Under the pieces are notes generated by a model. That model saw nothing but the letters and a program-made list of their open reading frames with translations, was not told the DNA's origin and made no database searches. A stretch of DNA of 64,000 bases from Escherichia phage IME178, in sequence record NC_104190.1, one strand, 5' to 3'. A program made the translations under genes and the position numbers. Below, piece by piece: positions 49,232 to 53,430 of the stretch; the first letter of the stretch is position 1; every line of letters starts with the position of its first letter.

Positions 49232-50989
49232 TTAGGTAAGGCGTTGAACTGTTACTCTTAATCTAGGTAGGAAAACTGCACTACCTAAACTTACGTGCAT
49301 AACTACCCCTAACTCTACATTTCCGTTCCCCAGATTTTTAGCAGTGTATATAAAACTATTTCTACTTAGGGCATTGTTAGGTGTGTATCTAAAAGCAGAT
49401 GTAGTATGAAAAGGTACTAAATACCCTACTGGTAGTGTTAAAATCTGGTGGAATATCGCGTCTCCATTGCTATAACTATATGCTCTTCTTCCTTGCACTT
49501 GAAACACACCGTTATTCCATGTATTAGCAGGAACACCTGCACAGTTAAGATTACCTGATATAACTTCAGTGGTAAGAATTACTGTAGCATTGCCACCCGG
49601 TATACCTAGCCCAATAGTTGATAAACCAACGTATCTATCTCCTGTTCCCGGGTAGCTAGGAGTAATATCATCTCCCATATAAGAACTACCTACATTTCCA
49701 CCAAAAAGTCGTAATGGAACTGCTGAAGGCCCCCAAACAACCCCGTGTTCATTACCGATAGTATTATCATTAGAGTTTACGTACCATTGCTTACCAGCTC
49801 CGAATTTGTAAATACTAATTTGAGACTTAGCCCCTCCATAGTCTACAGGAGACCATAAACTCCCGTTACTAGAACCTACAAGTTCACACCTTGCAGTGGT
49901 ATCCCCAAAGGCCCCAGTGTACGCTGCATTATTTCCAATATATTCCATATCTGGTCTATAACCTAAGTTACCGAAAGCGTTCTGGTTAATAAACTTGTAT
50001 CCAGTATTGGGAAGACTAACCCCTTTAATTATGAAATTAGAAGGAGATATAAGAATATCTGAACCAGTAAAAGGATTACCAGAGATACTCATACCACCAT
50101 TTGAGTATCTTAAATTCAAAACGTACCAAATAACTTTAGTAGGGGTTATGTTATACCAATCCTGTAATATTGTAGCGTTACCAGATTGGTTAGCTAAATT
50201 AGTTGTAGAACCCCTACAAACAAATCTGTTACCTCCATCATGATACATAGTATTTACATTACCAGGAAGACCTTGTCTTACCCCACCATACCCACGTATG
50301 TTAGAGTTACAAACATAAAACCAATCGTGCCCTCTGTGTGCTGATCCTAAAGGAGACATCCATCCTGGGTCCCAGTAATATTGGTTATTACCATCTATAG
50401 GTACTGTACTACTATTAGTAGGGAATCCTAACTGTGCAAAAGCTTCTGCAACAGTAATACCTACTGGAGCTCCTGCACCTGGCCTAACTATACCATGATA
50501 CGTACTATGTAAGGTAGTACCCCCTGTACCATTCCTAGAAATAGATTCTTCATGTCCTATAGATGGATTATAGTTATATGTACCAGATGCCAGGCTATTA
50601 CCAAATGCAAATCCACTAGTCTGGGAAACACTAGCAAAAGATCTAAAAGGATCTGCTTGAGTGGCAACTATAGTTTGACCCACCTTACTCTGAGTACCAT
50701 TAAGAAAAGCCCTATGAGTACCATTTATCTCAATAGCAGTTAGTATAACTCTACCAGGATCGTTAGATTTAATATTTATTATGTCAGCGGGCATTTGACA
50801 TACAAAAAACCCATTACCGGCATCACCTAACCCAGACTCATAAGTACCATCAACTAGGACAAATGGCATGTCACTATGAAAAATACTATTGGCATTTGGA
50901 CTATAGTGACGATTAATGTCACCACCAGATTCAGTATTTAAAGATAGTACGGTCTTACCATCGCTATATTTTCCAGCGAAAAAACCCAT
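49232..50989 (-). CDS. receptor-binding tail protein (pb5-like)
   Basis: 585-aa Gly/Asn/Ser/Thr-rich protein encoded divergently from a lipoprotein gene, the arrangement known for T5 oad(pb5)/llp. Confidence 0.6.
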
Positions 50990-51014
50990 ATAATCTCCTA
51001 TTATAAAAATGTAT

Positions 51015-51043
51015 TTGCTTTCATCCCTCTATTTTGCTATAAT
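51015..51043 (+). promoter_or_regulatory. sigma70-type early promoter (TTGCTT-17-TATAAT) with conserved ATAAATTAGAAATGGAGAGA leader, driving llp
   Basis: Same promoter family as the replication genes, in the divergent pb5/llp intergenic region. Confidence 0.5.
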
Positions 51044-51074
51044 AGATTCATAAATTAGAAATGGAGAGATAAAT

Positions 51075-51341
51075 ATGAAAAAGTTTGTGATTGCACTAGT
51101 TGCCGCAGTTATGTTATCTGGTTGTGCACCTGCTCCCAAACCATTTTGTACTGGATTTGTAAAATCTTTTGGGGGTGCGGGAGAAGAACATTATGGCCTC
51201 AAGGTTCAAAAAGTTCGTATTAAGGGAGATCGCTTCCCAGTAGTACAACTCCGTACTAAATTTGGGTGGTGGGATCTCAGTCAGTTTGACCTTAAATATG
51301 GTGATTGTAAATTTAAACTAGAGCAATCTAACTACCTGTAA
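51075..51341 (+). CDS. llp: Llp-like lytic-conversion lipoprotein
   Basis: 88 aa with signal peptide and lipobox LSGC; divergent from the receptor-binding gene. Confidence 0.65.
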   Translation: MKKFVIALVAAVMLSGCAPAPKPFCTGFVKSFGGAGEEHYGLKVQKVRIKGDRFPVVQLRTKFGWWDLSQFDLKYGDCKFKLEQSNYL

Positions 51342-51518
51342 TTAGTATAAAGCAAAAAGACATCTAAGTAAACTAAATTTTTTATTTTTTGGACGGTATA
51401 TTGGCAGAAACCACTATGTAAGAAAAGTAGAAGTCCTTCTAGGAAGTCACAAGCATGGTTGGTTGTGCACAAATTATAAAATAATTTAAAATACCACATT
51501 TATTGGAGCATGAAAGAT

Positions 51519-51647
51519 ATGTCAAATAAAAGAAAGAACAGGCGTGGAGAAGTTTACGAAGCGTGGATTAATATTTACGGATTTGGTTTTGTATTATTCC
51601 TAATCTTCGTAGGTTTTTGGTTAGCAGCTATGGCGGGGTGGATCTAA
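51519..51647 (+). CDS. small single-pass membrane protein (42 aa)
   Basis: MSNKRKNRRGEVYEAW then hydrophobic helix; below the ORF-track length cutoff. Confidence 0.4.
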   Translation: MSNKRKNRRGEVYEAWINIYGFGFVLFLIFVGFWLAAMAGWI

Positions 51648-51802
51648 TGGAATGGGTAATTATTGGCATATTCGTCTTATTGATACTTATCTTTGTAGGC
51701 TTACGTGTAATAGATACCTCTATAACCCAAACAGAGATTAAATTAATGCAGTTGAGCAATAGATTATCTAGAATTGAGACTTTATTAGAGGAGCGTAAAT
51801 AA
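51647..51802 (+). CDS. small membrane protein, MEWVII family member 1
   Basis: MEWVIIGIFVLLILIFVG...RIETLLEERK; ATG overlaps previous stop. Confidence 0.5.
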   Translation: MEWVIIGIFVLLILIFVGLRVIDTSITQTEIKLMQLSNRLSRIETLLEERK

Positions 51803-51909
51803 TGGAATGGGTAATTATTGCACTACTAGGGATTGTGATTATCGGGCAGTGTATTTTAGATAATCATCTAGCTAGAATTGAAACCTTATTATTGGAGAAA
51901 CGTAAATGA
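51802..51909 (+). CDS. small membrane protein, MEWVII family member 2 (35 aa)
   Basis: MEWVIIALLGIVIIGQ...RIETLLLEKRK; paralogue of the preceding ORF. Confidence 0.45.
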   Translation: MEWVIIALLGIVIIGQCILDNHLARIETLLLEKRK

Positions 51910-52100
51910 TGGAAGCGGCAATTACACTAATGGTAATATTAGTTTGGATAATCTTTATTGCCTCTCGTATTGTGTACGTTCGCCTAAAAACTCTAGAAGC
52001 CCAGGTAAAACAACAACAAGTTGCTCTAGAAAAGCTAGTATTACTCCAACGTTGTGATAGCACCCGTATTCTGCAAATTGAGAGGGAATTAGATGTTTAG
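51906..52100 (+). CDS. small membrane protein (64 aa)
   Basis: N-terminal TM helix then coiled charged tail; ATGA overlap. Confidence 0.5.
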   Translation: MMEAAITLMVILVWIIFIASRIVYVRLKTLEAQVKQQQVALEKLVLLQRCDSTRILQIERELDV

Positions 52101-52338
52101 TATTGTAATTGCTTTTATTATCGGGATACTCGCGGGAGTTTTCGGAACAACTGCGGCAATTAACAAGCATCGGGAATATATTGCGGGAGTGACGCGGGAG
52201 ATTGCGGAAAGGGAGCGGAAGTTTGACGAGAAACGTGCGGAGTTTGAACGAGAATGGTCGGATGGTTCTCGGGCGTCGCGGAAGAGATTTCGCATGTCAG
52301 AATCAGGAGACAAGCCGGTAGACAGGAGAAGCTCATGA
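52093..52338 (+). CDS. small membrane protein with charged C-terminal tail (81 aa)
   Basis: TM helix MFSIVIAFIIGILAGVFG then Arg/Glu-rich tail. Confidence 0.5.
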   Translation: MFSIVIAFIIGILAGVFGTTAAINKHREYIAGVTREIAERERKFDEKRAEFEREWSDGSRASRKRFRMSESGDKPVDRRSS

Positions 52339-52538
52339 AAGAATTCGGGCAGTTTAAAATAACCCAAGAAAAACTAGAAAAGATGGGTATCACCCAAAAG
52401 ATGCTACAGGTTTTTCCTAAGTCTTCGGAAATTCCAGAAGGATTTATGAGGTTTTATGAAGCTATAGAGTACATTAATAATCTTGTTAAAACGGACCCTA
52501 CGTGGCAATCAGTTCTCAAGCAGTTAGCCCATAAATAG
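52335..52538 (+). CDS. hypothetical protein (67 aa)
   Basis: ATG 52335 six nt after AGGAG (track 52254..52538). Confidence 0.45.
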   Translation: MKEFGQFKITQEKLEKMGITQKMLQVFPKSSEIPEGFMRFYEAIEYINNLVKTDPTWQSVLKQLAHK

Positions 52539-52695
52539 CGCTAATTACCAATCCTCCAAATTTCATAAGATTACACATGGAGGTGTGTCCAGTGGCCCCC
52601 CAGATGAGAATGAGTCTCATTACCGCCCGGTACTTAGCAGGCTAATAGTCACGGCATGTTACCATTACACACCGTGACTATTTCAACTTTAATTA

Positions 52696-53430
52696 TTACG
52701 CAACTTTTAATTTCTCAATATATTGTTGCGGGCTGCAACTATATTCTGCGCGTTCTTCCTCGGTCATACCTTCCCAGCATAATTTCAAACGATCAGCTAG
52801 GAACTGATAATCATTATCATCGTCGAGAGATTCATCAATAAAGGTTTCACCTATCAATGCCACGCCGATTGATAGAATATCATTAACGGCTTGTGCGTCC
52901 AGCGTTTTAAATCCGTATGACGCTGCCGCTGATAACACGCCTTTATGATCATCAATCATTGTAAATTCAGCGTTCGGATATAACTGTTTAAATAACTCAA
53001 AATAATAAGATTTATATACTGCGTCTTTACTATGGTAAATTTCGCTAACCTTATCAGCTTTAAAATATTTATGCAGTGTATCACGGGAAAATACGCGAAT
53101 ATTGCTTTTATCACGACCGCGTAAACCTTGTTTGCGCAGGAAGTAATAATCTGATTTGCTCATTAGTCGAGCGGTACAAATAATGTTTAAAGTATTTGCG
53201 TCATTCATGCACTGGCGCATGTATTCAACTAATGGTAATAATGTATCTTGCATTATTAAATGATGTTTGCAGGCTTCATTTTTATATTTATTTAAATCTA
53301 AATTGCCCTCATTATCAAAGCAAGGCGCTACACGATGGAAAGAATTAACGATAGTGCCGTCTAAATCCCAAATCATAACGCGGGAAATATGCGGGAAGCT
53401 GCGGGAAATGTTCATAATAGCTTTATTCAT
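52696..53430 (-). CDS. dmp: 5'-deoxyribonucleotidase (dmp-like, HAD family)
   Basis: 244 aa with HAD motif I WDLDGT; same length as T5 Dmp; lies in the pre-early block. Confidence 0.7.
   Translation of the reverse strand: MNKAIMNISRSFPHISRVMIWDLDGTIVNSFHRVAPCFDNEGNLDLNKYKNEACKHHLIMQDTLLPLVEYMRQCMNDANTLNIICTARLMSKSDYYFLRKQGLRGRDKSNIRVFSRDTLHKYFKADKVSEIYHSKDAVYKSYYFELFKQLYPNAEFTMIDDHKGVLSAAASYGFKTLDAQAVNDILSIGVALIGETFIDESLDDDNDYQFLADRLKLCWEGMTEEERAEYSCSPQQYIEKLKVA

What the first reader, a model, noticed from the sequence alone, without database searches (positions are those of the whole stretch)
51519..52538. Cluster of five or six tiny membrane proteins, including paralogous MEWVII peptides, between llp and dmp
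Tightly overlapping small ORFs (42, 51, 35, 64, 81, 67 aa), most with a single N-terminal TM helix; two begin MEWVII and end RIETLL(L)E(E/K)RK, and a third has a related helix and coiled tail. Several are below typical gene-calling cutoffs. Their position beside the lytic-conversion lipoprotein and at the edge of the pre-early block suggests roles in membrane remodelling, superinfection exclusion or DNA-transfer control.
Basis: partly seen in the sequence, partly recalled or inferred. Interest (0 to 1): 0.55.

Follow-up and report, generated by a model that had tools for sequence, protein, structure and literature searches.

The report
Small membrane-protein genes beside T5 llp
The six tiny genes are real, conserved genes of T5-like phages: five encode single-pass membrane peptides, one a small soluble protein, and four are the already annotated T5.159-T5.162. 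They are non-essential accessory genes of unknown function that most likely act at the cell membrane alongside the receptor-blocking protein Llp.

Summary
Six same-strand ORFs of 42, 51, 35, 64, 81 and 67 aa lie at 51519-52538, with overlapping start and stop codons and ribosome-binding sites. They sit between llp and the terminal repeat that carries dmp. All are under purifying selection (dN/dS 0.13-0.40) and only the annotated frame is always open.

They are not new. Four are orthologues of T5.159-T5.162, annotated in the T5 reference as single-transmembrane proteins, and all six match PHROG families of unknown function.

o42 and o81 occur in about 430-440 T5-like phage records. An o35-type gene was in 30 of 31 loci compared, and o64 is in about 308 records. 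The second MEWVII paralogue (o51, 33 records) and the soluble o67 (60 records) are optional.

The genes lie outside the terminal repeat, so they are not pre-early. Bas33 RNA-seq shows the locus transcribed at 20 min, and not when second-step DNA transfer is blocked. CRISPRi-ART scores T5.159-162 and llp as dispensable.

The peptides look like membrane-anchored leucine zippers with cytoplasmic tails. No homologue exists outside T5-like phages.

Best guess (low confidence): an accessory operon led by llp that acts at the inner membrane, for example in superinfection exclusion. Interest is low to moderate.

The parts
51015..51043 (+). llp promoter (-35 TTGCTT, 17-nt spacer, -10 TATAAT); probable promoter of the whole llp/small-ORF transcription unit
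   Evidence: Read directly from the sequence. The promoter annotated upstream of llp in T5 has the same hexamers and spacing.
51075..51341 (+). llp, the lytic-conversion / receptor-blocking lipoprotein (88 aa, lipobox LSGC)
   Evidence: PHROG 1119 'Cor superinfection exclusion protein' at 1.8e-26 and Pfam LPAM_1. dN/dS 0.16.
51342..51518 (+). llp-o42 spacer with no stable hairpin, no terminator and no consensus promoter
   Evidence: Fold z-score +0.76. The scan finds no terminator or promoter here. The first ~60 nt are nearly invariant among phages that share this llp type.
51519..51647 (+). o42, orthologue of T5.159: tail-anchored peptide with a basic cytoplasmic N-terminus (MSNKRKNRRGEVY) and a C-terminal TM helix at residues 21-42
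   Evidence: PHROG 8596 at 6e-31. Found in 427 phage records. dN/dS 0.13. Topology inferred from the positive-inside rule.
51647..51802 (+). o51, the long MEWVII paralogue: N-terminal TM helix (3-19) and a 32-aa heptad-repeat tail ending NRLSRIETLLEERK; an optional gene
   Evidence: PHROG 6369 at 2.8e-16. Found in only 33 phage records. Flanked by an exact 21-nt direct repeat. dN/dS 0.30 from 6 sequences.
51802..51909 (+). o35, orthologue of T5.160: N-terminal TM helix and a 16-aa tail; GQC.LDN.LARIE is conserved
   Evidence: PHROG 6369 at 1.7e-25. Present in 30 of 31 loci. dN/dS 0.20. Alignment.
51906..52100 (+). o64, orthologue of T5.161: N-terminal TM helix that continues into a ~40-residue heptad helix; the C-terminus QR.D..RI.Q.ERELDV is invariant
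   Evidence: PHROG 5851 at 1.2e-31. AF2 predicts one continuous helix over residues 2-63, pLDDT 87. Found in 308 phage records including a 36-46% identical variant. dN/dS 0.40.
52093..52338 (+). o81, orthologue of T5.162: N-terminal TM helix (1-23) and a highly charged helical tail (REIAERERKFDEKRAEFEREW); the last 14 aa vary with the downstream insert
   Evidence: PHROG 6447 'membrane protein' at 2.3e-48. Found in 442 phage records, all T5-like. The exhaustive HMMER search returned only 5 close clusters. dN/dS 0.33.
52335..52538 (+). o67, a small soluble protein that is optional cargo in the variable slot between o81 and the terminal repeat
   Evidence: PHROG 20937 at 1.5e-39. Found in 60 phage records and 14 protein clusters. 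Absent in T5. The same slot holds HNH endonuclease genes in other relatives. AF2 pLDDT 65 and no fold match.
51645..51665 (+). Exact 21-nt direct repeat, copy 1 (TAATGGAATGGGTAATTATTG), at the o51 start
   Evidence: family D2. Recombination with copy 2 would delete o51 precisely.
51800..51820 (+). Exact 21-nt direct repeat, copy 2, at the o35 start
   Evidence: family D2.
52586..52594 (.). Inferred first bases of the terminal repeat (TGTCCAGTG), aligned to position 1 of the T5 genome
   Evidence: Alignment with the T5 left end and with annotated RTR/DTR starts of T5, MM-1 and Kenya-K15.
52644..52682 (.). Conserved hairpin just beyond the dmp stop; possible end of the llp/small-ORF transcript
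   Evidence: Inverted repeat I1. The 52530-52700 fold has z-score -3.98. T5 and MM-1 carry a different hairpin at the same place.
52696..53430 (-). dmp (deoxynucleoside-5'-monophosphatase), first gene of the terminal repeat, convergent with the cluster
   Evidence: 92% identical to T5 dmp. T5 annotation.

Best explanation
Shown, or strongly supported (about 0.9).
- The six ORFs are real protein-coding genes of a T5-like phage (Markadamsvirinae).
- Four are orthologues of T5.159, T5.160, T5.161 and T5.162. o51 is an extra paralogue of T5.160, and o67 is optional soluble cargo.
- Five encode single-pass inner-membrane peptides. By the positive-inside rule, o51, o35, o64 and o81 are N-out/C-in with cytoplasmic heptad-repeat or charged helical tails. 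o42 is tail-anchored with a basic cytoplasmic N-terminus.
- The genes lie in unique DNA just left of the right terminal repeat. They are probably read from the strong early-type llp promoter as one translationally coupled operon.
- They are expressed only after second-step DNA transfer and are dispensable for lytic growth in the laboratory.

Inferred (about 0.3).
- Conservation sits in short cytoplasmic motifs as well as in the TM helices: RRGEVY, LARIE/LSRIETLLEERK, RI.Q.ERELDV, FEREW.DGSRASR.
- The peptides therefore most likely act as membrane-anchored zipper adaptors. They would bind each other and/or a membrane-embedded partner.
- Together with Llp they would form an accessory envelope-protection module. 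Llp blocks the outer-membrane receptor from the periplasm. The peptides would act at the cytoplasmic membrane, for example to hinder channel formation or DNA entry by secondary phages, as T4 Imm and HK97 gp15 do.
For: Coding status: ORFs and Shine-Dalgarno sequences; intact in all 31 loci; dN/dS 0.13-0.40; the sense frame is the only frame open in all sequences and has the lowest omega.

Orthology: T5 annotation; PHROG hits at 1e-16 to 1e-48; synteny.

Topology and architecture: hydropathy and flanking charges; o64 modelled as one continuous helix, pLDDT 87; a/d heptads read from the sequences; motifs invariant even in 36-63% identical variants.

Transcription unit: TTGCTT-17-TATAAT upstream of llp, identical in layout to the annotated T5 promoter; no hairpin, terminator or promoter in the spacer.

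Expression: Bas33 RNA-seq at 20 min gives llp 219/127 TPM, o51 162/137, o64 462/408 and o81 22/13. With daunorubicin, which blocks second-step transfer, all drop to 0-1 reads (PMC13250531 Dataset S1).

Position: outside the terminal repeat.

Dispensability: T5.159-162 and llp are all 'Not Fit' in CRISPRi-ART (PMC11879866 supplement).

Accessory, mosaic character: o42 in 427 and o81 in 442 records against o64 308, o67 60 and o51 33.

Positional analogue: in Klebsiella Sugarlandvirus, N-terminal-TM coiled-coil proteins of 74 and 151 aa follow the receptor-binding gene directly.

Functional theme: the only characterised gene of the unit, llp, is a superinfection-exclusion / receptor-blocking factor (PMC9586334).
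Against: - No sequence or profile similarity to any exclusion, holin, spanin or defence family.
- No experiment addresses function, and none was found in the literature.
- Cassette composition does not co-vary with the llp / receptor-binding type. T5 (FhuA-type, unrelated llp) and this phage share o42, o35, o64 and o81. There is therefore no sign of direct cooperation with Llp.
- Topology is only predicted.
- Per-gene RNA-seq counts are erratic. o42 and o35 get about 1 read, probably because the genes are shorter than the reads, so translation of each peptide is unproven.
- The CRISPRi-ART T5 screen also scored some virion genes 'Not Fit', so its negative calls are weak.
Confidence: 0.35

Rival explanations
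1. The peptides are host-takeover or anti-defence modulators rather than exclusion factors. Each would bind and switch a larger inner-membrane protein (transporter, protease, sensor, or membrane-anchored defence effector), as bacterial small membrane proteins such as MgrB, AcrZ and MgtS do.
For: Sizes of 35-81 aa with a single TM helix and short conserved juxtamembrane or cytoplasmic motifs. Dispensable on a laboratory K-12 host yet under purifying selection, and mosaic in gene content. This pattern is typical of host-range or counter-defence accessory genes. PHROG places o81 in the 'moron, auxiliary metabolic gene and host takeover' category.
Against: No identified target and no similarity to known anti-defence proteins. 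PADLOC, which models defence rather than anti-defence proteins, is also empty. o42 and o81 are near-universal in about 430-440 Markadamsvirinae genomes whatever the host genus. That argues against a strain-specific counter-defence role.
Confidence: 0.25
2. The peptides tune lysis timing. They would act as membrane-anchored antiholin-like or holin-accessory factors for the T4-gpt-type class III holin of T5, by analogy with T4 RI and RIII.
For: The T5 holin is a homologue of T4 gpt, which is controlled by small partner proteins (PMC12894885). The T5 lysis cassette shows only holin and endolysin, with no annotated regulators. The peptides are membrane-bound with cytoplasmic helices.
Against: The cluster lies about 90 kb from the lysis cassette. 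No PHROG or Pfam similarity to holins, antiholins or spanins. Lysis inhibition is not a described T5 trait (my own knowledge). Knock-down gave no fitness signal. The Center for Phage Technology annotators of phage Sugarland identified spanins in that genome but left the two genes at this position as hypothetical.
Confidence: 0.1
3. The peptides tether phage DNA or replication/packaging complexes to the membrane, like phi29 p16.7. The basic N-terminus of o42 and the charged tail of o81 would bind nucleic acid near the genome end.
For: Same gross layout as p16.7, a TM helix followed by a coiled coil (my own knowledge of p16.7). o42 has a net +3 N-terminal segment rich in K/R, and o81 is net +4. 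The genes lie next to the terminal repeat and near the terminase genes.
Against: The tails are too short to hold a DNA-binding domain. There is no fitness effect on knock-down. Position next to the repeat is equally explained by this being a recombination-prone accessory slot that takes HNH insertions.
Confidence: 0.06
4. Some or all of the ORFs are not translated, and the conservation reflects an RNA or DNA element or an antisense gene.
For: Long open antisense stretches of 74-127 aa exist across the region in all loci. One antisense frame of o81 is stop-free with omega 0.35. RNA-seq counts for o42 and o35 are about 1 read.
Against: The low-omega antisense frame is the one that shares third codon positions with the sense frame, which is a known mirror effect. 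The sense frame has the lower omega in every family and is never interrupted. The sense ORFs have ATG starts, Shine-Dalgarno sequences and coupled junctions. Indels are in multiples of three. No Rfam match.
Confidence: 0.03

Closest known systems
Phage T5 genes T5.159, T5.160, T5.161, T5.162 (YP_006987-YP_006990; PHROGs 8596, 6369, 5851, 6447)
   Same: Orthologues at 78-94% identity, in the same order and strand, in the same position between llp and the right terminal repeat. All are annotated 'contains single transmembrane domain'.
   Different: The window carries two extra genes that T5 lacks. These are o51, a longer paralogue of T5.160, and o67 (PHROG 20937), which is inserted between the T5.162 orthologue and the repeat. 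The last 14 residues of o81 differ from T5.162.
T4 Imm and Sp, and HK97 gp15 (inner-membrane superinfection-exclusion proteins)
   Same: Small, non-essential, membrane-anchored phage proteins that protect the infected cell at the cytoplasmic membrane. Here the genes share a transcription unit with a known exclusion gene. This is a resemblance of working mode only, and it rests on my own knowledge of those proteins.
   Different: No sequence or profile similarity. Imm has two TM helices, and Sp and gp15 have periplasmic domains. The T5-type peptides are predicted to have cytoplasmic tails, and no exclusion phenotype has been tested.
Llp / Cor receptor-blocking lipoproteins
   Same: Adjacent, co-oriented and probably co-transcribed; accessory; envelope-located.
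   Different: [quoted passage not shown] The peptides have no lipobox and are predicted to sit in the inner membrane. Their variants do not track the llp type.
phi29 p16.7 and bacterial TM-plus-coiled-coil proteins (FtsB/FtsL, ZapG/YhcB, LapA)
   Same: N-terminal TM helix continuing into a heptad-repeat helix. Weak sub-threshold hits of o81 to LapA_dom (7e-4, 19.9 bits against a cut-off of 28) and FtsL (0.022).
   Different: All hits are below the curated cut-offs. The tails are far shorter and carry no additional domain. The predicted orientation (C-in) is opposite to FtsB/FtsL.
Bacterial small membrane-protein regulators (MgrB, AcrZ, MgtS, SgrT class)
   Same: A single TM helix in 30-80 aa, function through helix-helix binding to a larger membrane protein, dispensable under standard conditions (my own knowledge).
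   Different: No homology, a phage-encoded array of several different peptides, and an unknown target.

Membership tests
T5.159-T5.162 orthologous groups (PHROGs 8596 / 6369 / 5851 / 6447) | Significant full-length profile match | tested here: met
   E-values 6e-31, 1.7e-25 (o35), 2.8e-16 (o51), 1.2e-31 and 2.3e-48, each covering the whole profile.
T5.159-T5.162 orthologous groups (PHROGs 8596 / 6369 / 5851 / 6447) | Synteny: + strand between llp and the right terminal repeat, in the same gene order | tested here: met
   T5, MM-1, Kenya-K15, Stokescottia, Es2 and 25 IMG/VR loci.
T5.159-T5.162 orthologous groups (PHROGs 8596 / 6369 / 5851 / 6447) | One predicted transmembrane helix | tested here: met
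   KD-19 maxima of 2.3-3.1 for o42, o51, o35, o64 and o81.
PHROG 20937 (o67 family) | Significant profile match | tested here: met
   E-value 1.5e-39. 14 close clusters, all from T5-like contigs.
T5 pre-early (first-step-transfer) genes | Located inside the terminal repeat | tested here: not met
   By alignment with the T5 left end and annotated repeats, the repeat starts at about 52586, 47 nt after the o67 stop.
T5 pre-early (first-step-transfer) genes | Transcribed when only first-step DNA is in the cell | tested here: not met
   Bas33 orthologues give 0-1 reads under the daunorubicin block, whereas pre-early genes stay on (PMC13250531).
Superinfection-exclusion proteins (T4 Imm/Sp, HK97 gp15, Cor/Llp) | Sequence or profile similarity to a described exclusion family | tested here: not met
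   PHROGs, Pfam and NCBIfam give no such hit for the six ORFs. Only llp itself hits the Cor family.
Superinfection-exclusion proteins (T4 Imm/Sp, HK97 gp15, Cor/Llp) | Expression protects cells from secondary infection | not testable with these tools
   Needs plating, DNA-entry and mixed-infection assays.
Holins / antiholins | Profile similarity and position in the lysis cassette | tested here: not met
   No hits. The T5 holin and endolysin lie at 19.9-21.0 kb, far from this locus.
Two-component spanins (Rz/Rz1 type) | i-spanin with N-in/C-out topology and a long periplasmic coiled-coil domain, partnered by a lipoprotein o-spanin | tested here: not met
   Flanking charges predict C-in. Tails are only 16-58 aa. 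There is no embedded lipobox ORF. The Sugarland annotators reported spanins in that genome but left the two genes at this position as hypothetical.
Known anti-phage defence proteins (PADLOC) | Profile match | tested here: not met
   No family at E <= 1 for any of the six ORFs.
MEWVII paralogue family (o51 / o35 / T5.160) | o64 belongs to the same family | tested here: inconclusive
   hhalign probability 29%, P = 6e-4, aligning 30 columns that cover the TM helix and a few juxtamembrane residues. The shared 'RI..(I/L)E' tail motif and heptads were seen only by eye.

The most novel reading that the evidence does not exclude
The core peptides (o42, the o35 family, o81, with or without o64 and o51) assemble through their TM helices and cytoplasmic zipper tails into one hetero-oligomeric inner-membrane complex. 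This complex would be an Imm-like immunity device of T5-like phages. It would block inner-membrane channel formation or DNA translocation by the tape-measure protein of competing siphophages, independently of the outer-membrane receptor, and so complement Llp. Gene content (o51, o64 variants) would tune which competitors are excluded.
Probability: 0.12. Interest if true: 0.55.

Novelty: already known. Interest (0 to 1): 0.25.

Why it matters
T5 is a model phage, yet a block of tiny membrane-protein genes still has no assigned role. Two of them are present in about 430-440 sequenced T5-like genomes. An o35-type gene was in 30 of 31 loci compared.

If the peptides prove to be an inner-membrane exclusion or host-modulation device, they would explain how T5-like phages protect infected cells beyond receptor blocking. 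They would also add to the short list of characterised phage micro-proteins.

As it stands the finding re-identifies annotated hypothetical genes. Its practical value is a cleaner annotation. That means correct start codons and recognition that o35 and o42 are real genes often missed by gene callers. It also means correcting propagated names such as 'tail assembly protein'. The work also yields a defined, non-essential, small target for experiments.

Tried and rejected
- **Family libraries.** Pfam, NCBIfam, PADLOC, PDB sequence search and Rfam gave nothing at or above threshold. The only hits were weak ones to LapA_dom, FtsL and SecE, all below cut-off.
- **Remote homologues.** The exhaustive HMMER search with o81 returned 5 clusters, all more than 80% identical. 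Profile searches with the o64 and MEWVII alignments, and a single-sequence search with o67, returned only proteins from T5-like phages.
- **o67 structure.** AF2 gave pLDDT 65 and Foldseek against the PDB gave no match at E <= 0.001, so no fold was assigned.
- **Homology of o64 with the MEWVII pair.** Not established.
- **Spanin idea** (lipoprotein plus TM/coiled-coil neighbours). Rejected on predicted topology and tail length, and because the Sugarland annotators left the two genes at this position as hypothetical while reporting spanins in that genome. T5.038, next to the lysis cassette, was checked and is not a spanin either.
- **o67 as a remnant of the HNH endonuclease genes that occupy the same slot.** Rejected: no similarity.
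- **Antisense ORFs as the real genes.** Rejected.
- **Separate promoter or terminator in the llp-o42 spacer.** None found by scan, folding or conservation.
- **Literature.** Searches by locus tag, accession and topic found no functional study. They did find the CRISPRi-ART fitness table and the Bas33 RNA-seq table.
- **Positional conservation in distant Demerecviridae.** Present in Sugarlandvirus and absent in Proteus phage RP7, which has soluble small proteins there.
Full report
**What the window is.** The 51000-52700 stretch matches 362 phage records, all T5-like Demerecviridae (Tequintavirus and relatives), at 80-97% identity. The local order is receptor-binding tail protein pb5 (49232-50989, -), llp (51075-51341, +), the six small ORFs (+), then dmp (52696-53430, -) followed by the other pre-early genes. 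This is the junction between the unique region and the right terminal repeat of a T5-type genome.

**The observation.** The six ORFs are as described:

| ORF | Coordinates | Length |
|---|---|---|
| o42 | 51519-51647 | 42 aa |
| o51 | 51647-51802 | 51 aa |
| o35 | 51802-51909 | 35 aa |
| o64 | 51906-52100 | 64 aa |
| o81 | 52093-52338 | 81 aa |
| o67 | 52335-52538 | 67 aa |

- Each starts with ATG, has a GGAG-like ribosome-binding site, and overlaps its neighbour by 1-8 nt. This is the signature of translational coupling.
- Hydropathy gives one TM helix in five of the proteins. It is N-terminal in o51, o35, o64 and o81, and C-terminal in o42. o67 has none.
- o51 and o35 are clear paralogues. 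Both begin MEWVII and end in N(R/H)L(S/A)RIETLL, and both hit PHROG 6369.
- At DNA level they share an exact 21-nt repeat at their starts and a 29-nt repeat (83% identical) at their ends. Unequal recombination can therefore add or remove o51.
- Profile-profile comparison does not establish that o64 belongs to the same family: probability 29%, aligning mainly the TM segment.

**Are they genes?** I compared 31 loci: the window, five GenBank phages and 25 IMG/VR contigs.
- Every copy that is present is intact.
- Pairwise dN/dS is 0.13 (o42), 0.30 (o51), 0.20 (o35), 0.40 (o64), 0.33 (o81) and 0.20 (o67), against 0.16 for llp. Third codon positions vary most in all families except o51, which has only six near-identical sequences.
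- Among all six frames, only the annotated one is stop-free in every sequence, and it has the lowest omega.
- The long open antisense stretches (74-127 aa) are the usual mirror-frame effect.
- No Rfam family matches the region.

**They are already known as hypothetical genes.**
- The T5 reference genome annotates T5.159 (= o42), T5.160 (= o35), T5.161 (= o64) and T5.162 (= o81), each noted as 'contains single transmembrane domain'.
- All six ORFs hit existing PHROGs of unknown function at E-values of 1e-16 to 1e-48.
- Identical or near-identical proteins are already in public databases.
- Some records name the o64 family 'tail assembly protein'. Nothing supports that name.

**Distribution.** Counts are from tblastn against 50,697 phage records.

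| Gene | Records with a match |
|---|---|
| o81 | 442 |
| o42 | 427 |
| o64 | 308 (116 below 60% identity) |
| o67 | 60 |
| o51 | 33 |

- About 440 records carry a dmp at least 80% identical. o42 and o81 are therefore core genes of the T5-like subfamily.
- An o35-type gene was present in 30 of 31 loci. The other three genes are optional.
- Searches of billions of proteins found no relative outside T5-like phages.
- The cassette is mosaic. In my loci, the nine with the 34-aa o35 variant (tail ARIERKLR...) all lack canonical o64. The 21 with the 35-aa form all have it.
- The slot after o81 is empty in T5. In other relatives it holds o67 or one of three unrelated HNH endonuclease genes. The last 14 residues of o81 change with the occupant.
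- Cassette type does not follow llp or receptor type.
- A positional analogue exists in Klebsiella Sugarlandvirus. There, proteins of 74 and 151 aa with an N-terminal TM helix and a coiled coil follow the receptor-binding gene directly. Proteus phage RP7 has soluble small proteins at that position instead.

**Position and expression.**
- Alignment with the T5 left end and with annotated repeats of T5, MM-1 and Kenya-K15 puts the first base of the terminal repeat at about 52586, 47 nt after the o67 stop.
- The cluster is therefore in unique DNA that enters the cell last, not in the pre-early block.
- llp is preceded by TTGCTT-17 nt-TATAAT (51015-51043). The promoter annotated in T5 has the same hexamers and spacing.
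- The 177-nt llp-o42 spacer has no stable structure (z = +0.76), no terminator-like site and no consensus promoter. T5 annotates no regulatory feature there.
- In contrast, the 52530-52700 stretch folds strongly (z = -3.98), with a conserved hairpin at 52644-52682.
- I infer a single unit running from llp through o42, o51, o35, o64 and o81 to o67.
- Public RNA-seq of the close relative Bas33 at 20 min after infection gives the following TPM in two replicates: llp 219/127, o51 162/137, o64 462/408, o81 22/13, and about 1 for o42 and o35.
- All drop to 0-1 reads when daunorubicin blocks second-step transfer (PMC13250531 Dataset S1).
- The near-zero values for the two shortest genes most likely reflect read assignment, because those genes are shorter than the reads. 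That is my inference.
- In the CRISPRi-ART screen of T5, T5.159-162 and llp are all 'Not Fit', meaning knock-down does not impair the phage (PMC11879866 supplement). That screen also missed some virion genes, so the result shows dispensability only weakly.

**Architecture.**
- Flanking charges predict N-out/C-in for o51, o35, o64 and o81. The N-terminus is acidic or uncharged, and there are 2-4 K/R residues after the helix.
- They predict N-in for o42, which has a basic N-terminus and ends with its TM helix.
- AF2 models o64 as one continuous helix over residues 2-63, pLDDT 87.
- The tails of o51, o35 and o64 show regular a/d heptads (L/I/V at 3-4 spacing), read from the alignments.
- Conservation is not confined to the hydrophobic segments. 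Short soluble motifs are invariant even in variants that are only 36-63% identical. They are RRGEVY (o42), LARIE/LSRIETLLEERK (o35/o51), QR.D..RI.Q.ERELDV (o64) and FEREW.DGSRASR (o81).
- This points to specific protein-protein contacts rather than generic membrane damage.
- o67 is soluble. Its model is poor (pLDDT 65) and has no fold match.

**Mechanism.**
- What is shown: real, coupled, conserved genes for five inner-membrane peptides plus one soluble protein. They are expressed after full genome entry, are probably read from the llp promoter, and are not required for lytic growth in the laboratory.
- What is inferred: they work as membrane-anchored zipper adaptors.
- The role I consider most likely is envelope protection at the cytoplasmic membrane that complements Llp, that is an Imm- or gp15-like exclusion (about 0.3).
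- The support is only contextual: a shared unit with the one known exclusion gene, accessory and mosaic behaviour, and location.
- Rivals are modulation of host membrane proteins or counter-defence (0.25), lysis-timing control of the T4-type holin (0.1), membrane tethering of DNA (0.06) and non-translation (0.03).

**Verdict.** The feature is already annotated in the T5 reference and in PHROGs, and its function remains unknown. Interest is low to moderate.

Noticed in passing
window 52539-52690: Strongly structured segment (fold z = -3.98) that spans the inferred start of the terminal repeat (~52586). The sequence just left of the boundary, CCAAATTTCATAAGATTACACATGGAGGTG|TGTCCAGTG, is conserved in all relatives including T5. 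It may be part of the signal that defines the genome end during packaging.
   Followed up: partly
window 52644-52682: Hairpin (AATAGTCACGG...CCGTGACTATT) directly beyond the dmp stop. T5 and MM-1 carry a different hairpin at the same place (gtttcaccctgca...tgcagggtgaaac). Structure is therefore conserved while sequence is swapped. It is not a canonical intrinsic terminator, as it has no clean T-run.
   Followed up: partly
window 52339-52585; loci L006, L008, L009, L023, L024, L030: The slot between o81 and the terminal repeat is a variable insertion site. It is empty in T5, holds o67 here, and holds one of three different HNH/AP2-type homing endonuclease genes (157, 165 or 178 aa) in other relatives. 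The last 14 codons of o81 co-vary with the occupant.
   Followed up: yes
window 51645-51665 and 51800-51820: Exact 21-nt direct repeat at the starts of o51 and o35, plus a 29-nt repeat (83% identical) at their 3' ends. This gives a ready route for gain or loss of o51 and fits its presence in only 33 phage records.
   Followed up: yes
window 51342-51400: The first ~60 nt after the llp stop are almost invariant among phages sharing this llp type, more conserved than the neighbouring coding DNA. This probably marks the right edge of the exchangeable pb5/llp receptor module. A weak minus-strand promoter-like site (TTTACT-17-TATACT) lies there.
   Followed up: no
window 51015-51043: The llp promoter TTGCTT-17-TATAAT with an A/T-rich upstream region. 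From memory, the hexamers and the downstream 'AGATTCATAAATT' closely resemble the classic strong T5 early promoter PN25.
   Followed up: partly
loci L009, L010, L012-L014, L016, L017, L023, L029 versus the rest: Complete linkage between the o35 tail type and o64. Loci with the 34-aa ARIERKLR... form lack canonical o64, and loci with the 35-aa ARIETLL.EKRK form have it. This could reflect interaction between the two peptides, or simply a recombination breakpoint inside the 3' end of o35.
   Followed up: partly
public annotations of relatives: Propagated mis-annotations. The o64 family is often called 'tail assembly protein', o42 is sometimes 'tail fiber protein', and dmp is called 'polynucleotide kinase' in pharokka-style records.
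   Followed up: no
L032 4991-5674 (Klebsiella phage IME260); L035 14345-15034 (Sugarland): Sugarlandviruses have no llp-like lipoprotein after the receptor-binding gene. They have instead a 74-aa protein (MEVVIGALVLLSIV..., TM helix plus coiled coil) and a 151-aa N-terminal-TM protein with a Ser-rich tail. These are possible distant analogues of the MEWVII/o64 peptides.
   Followed up: partly
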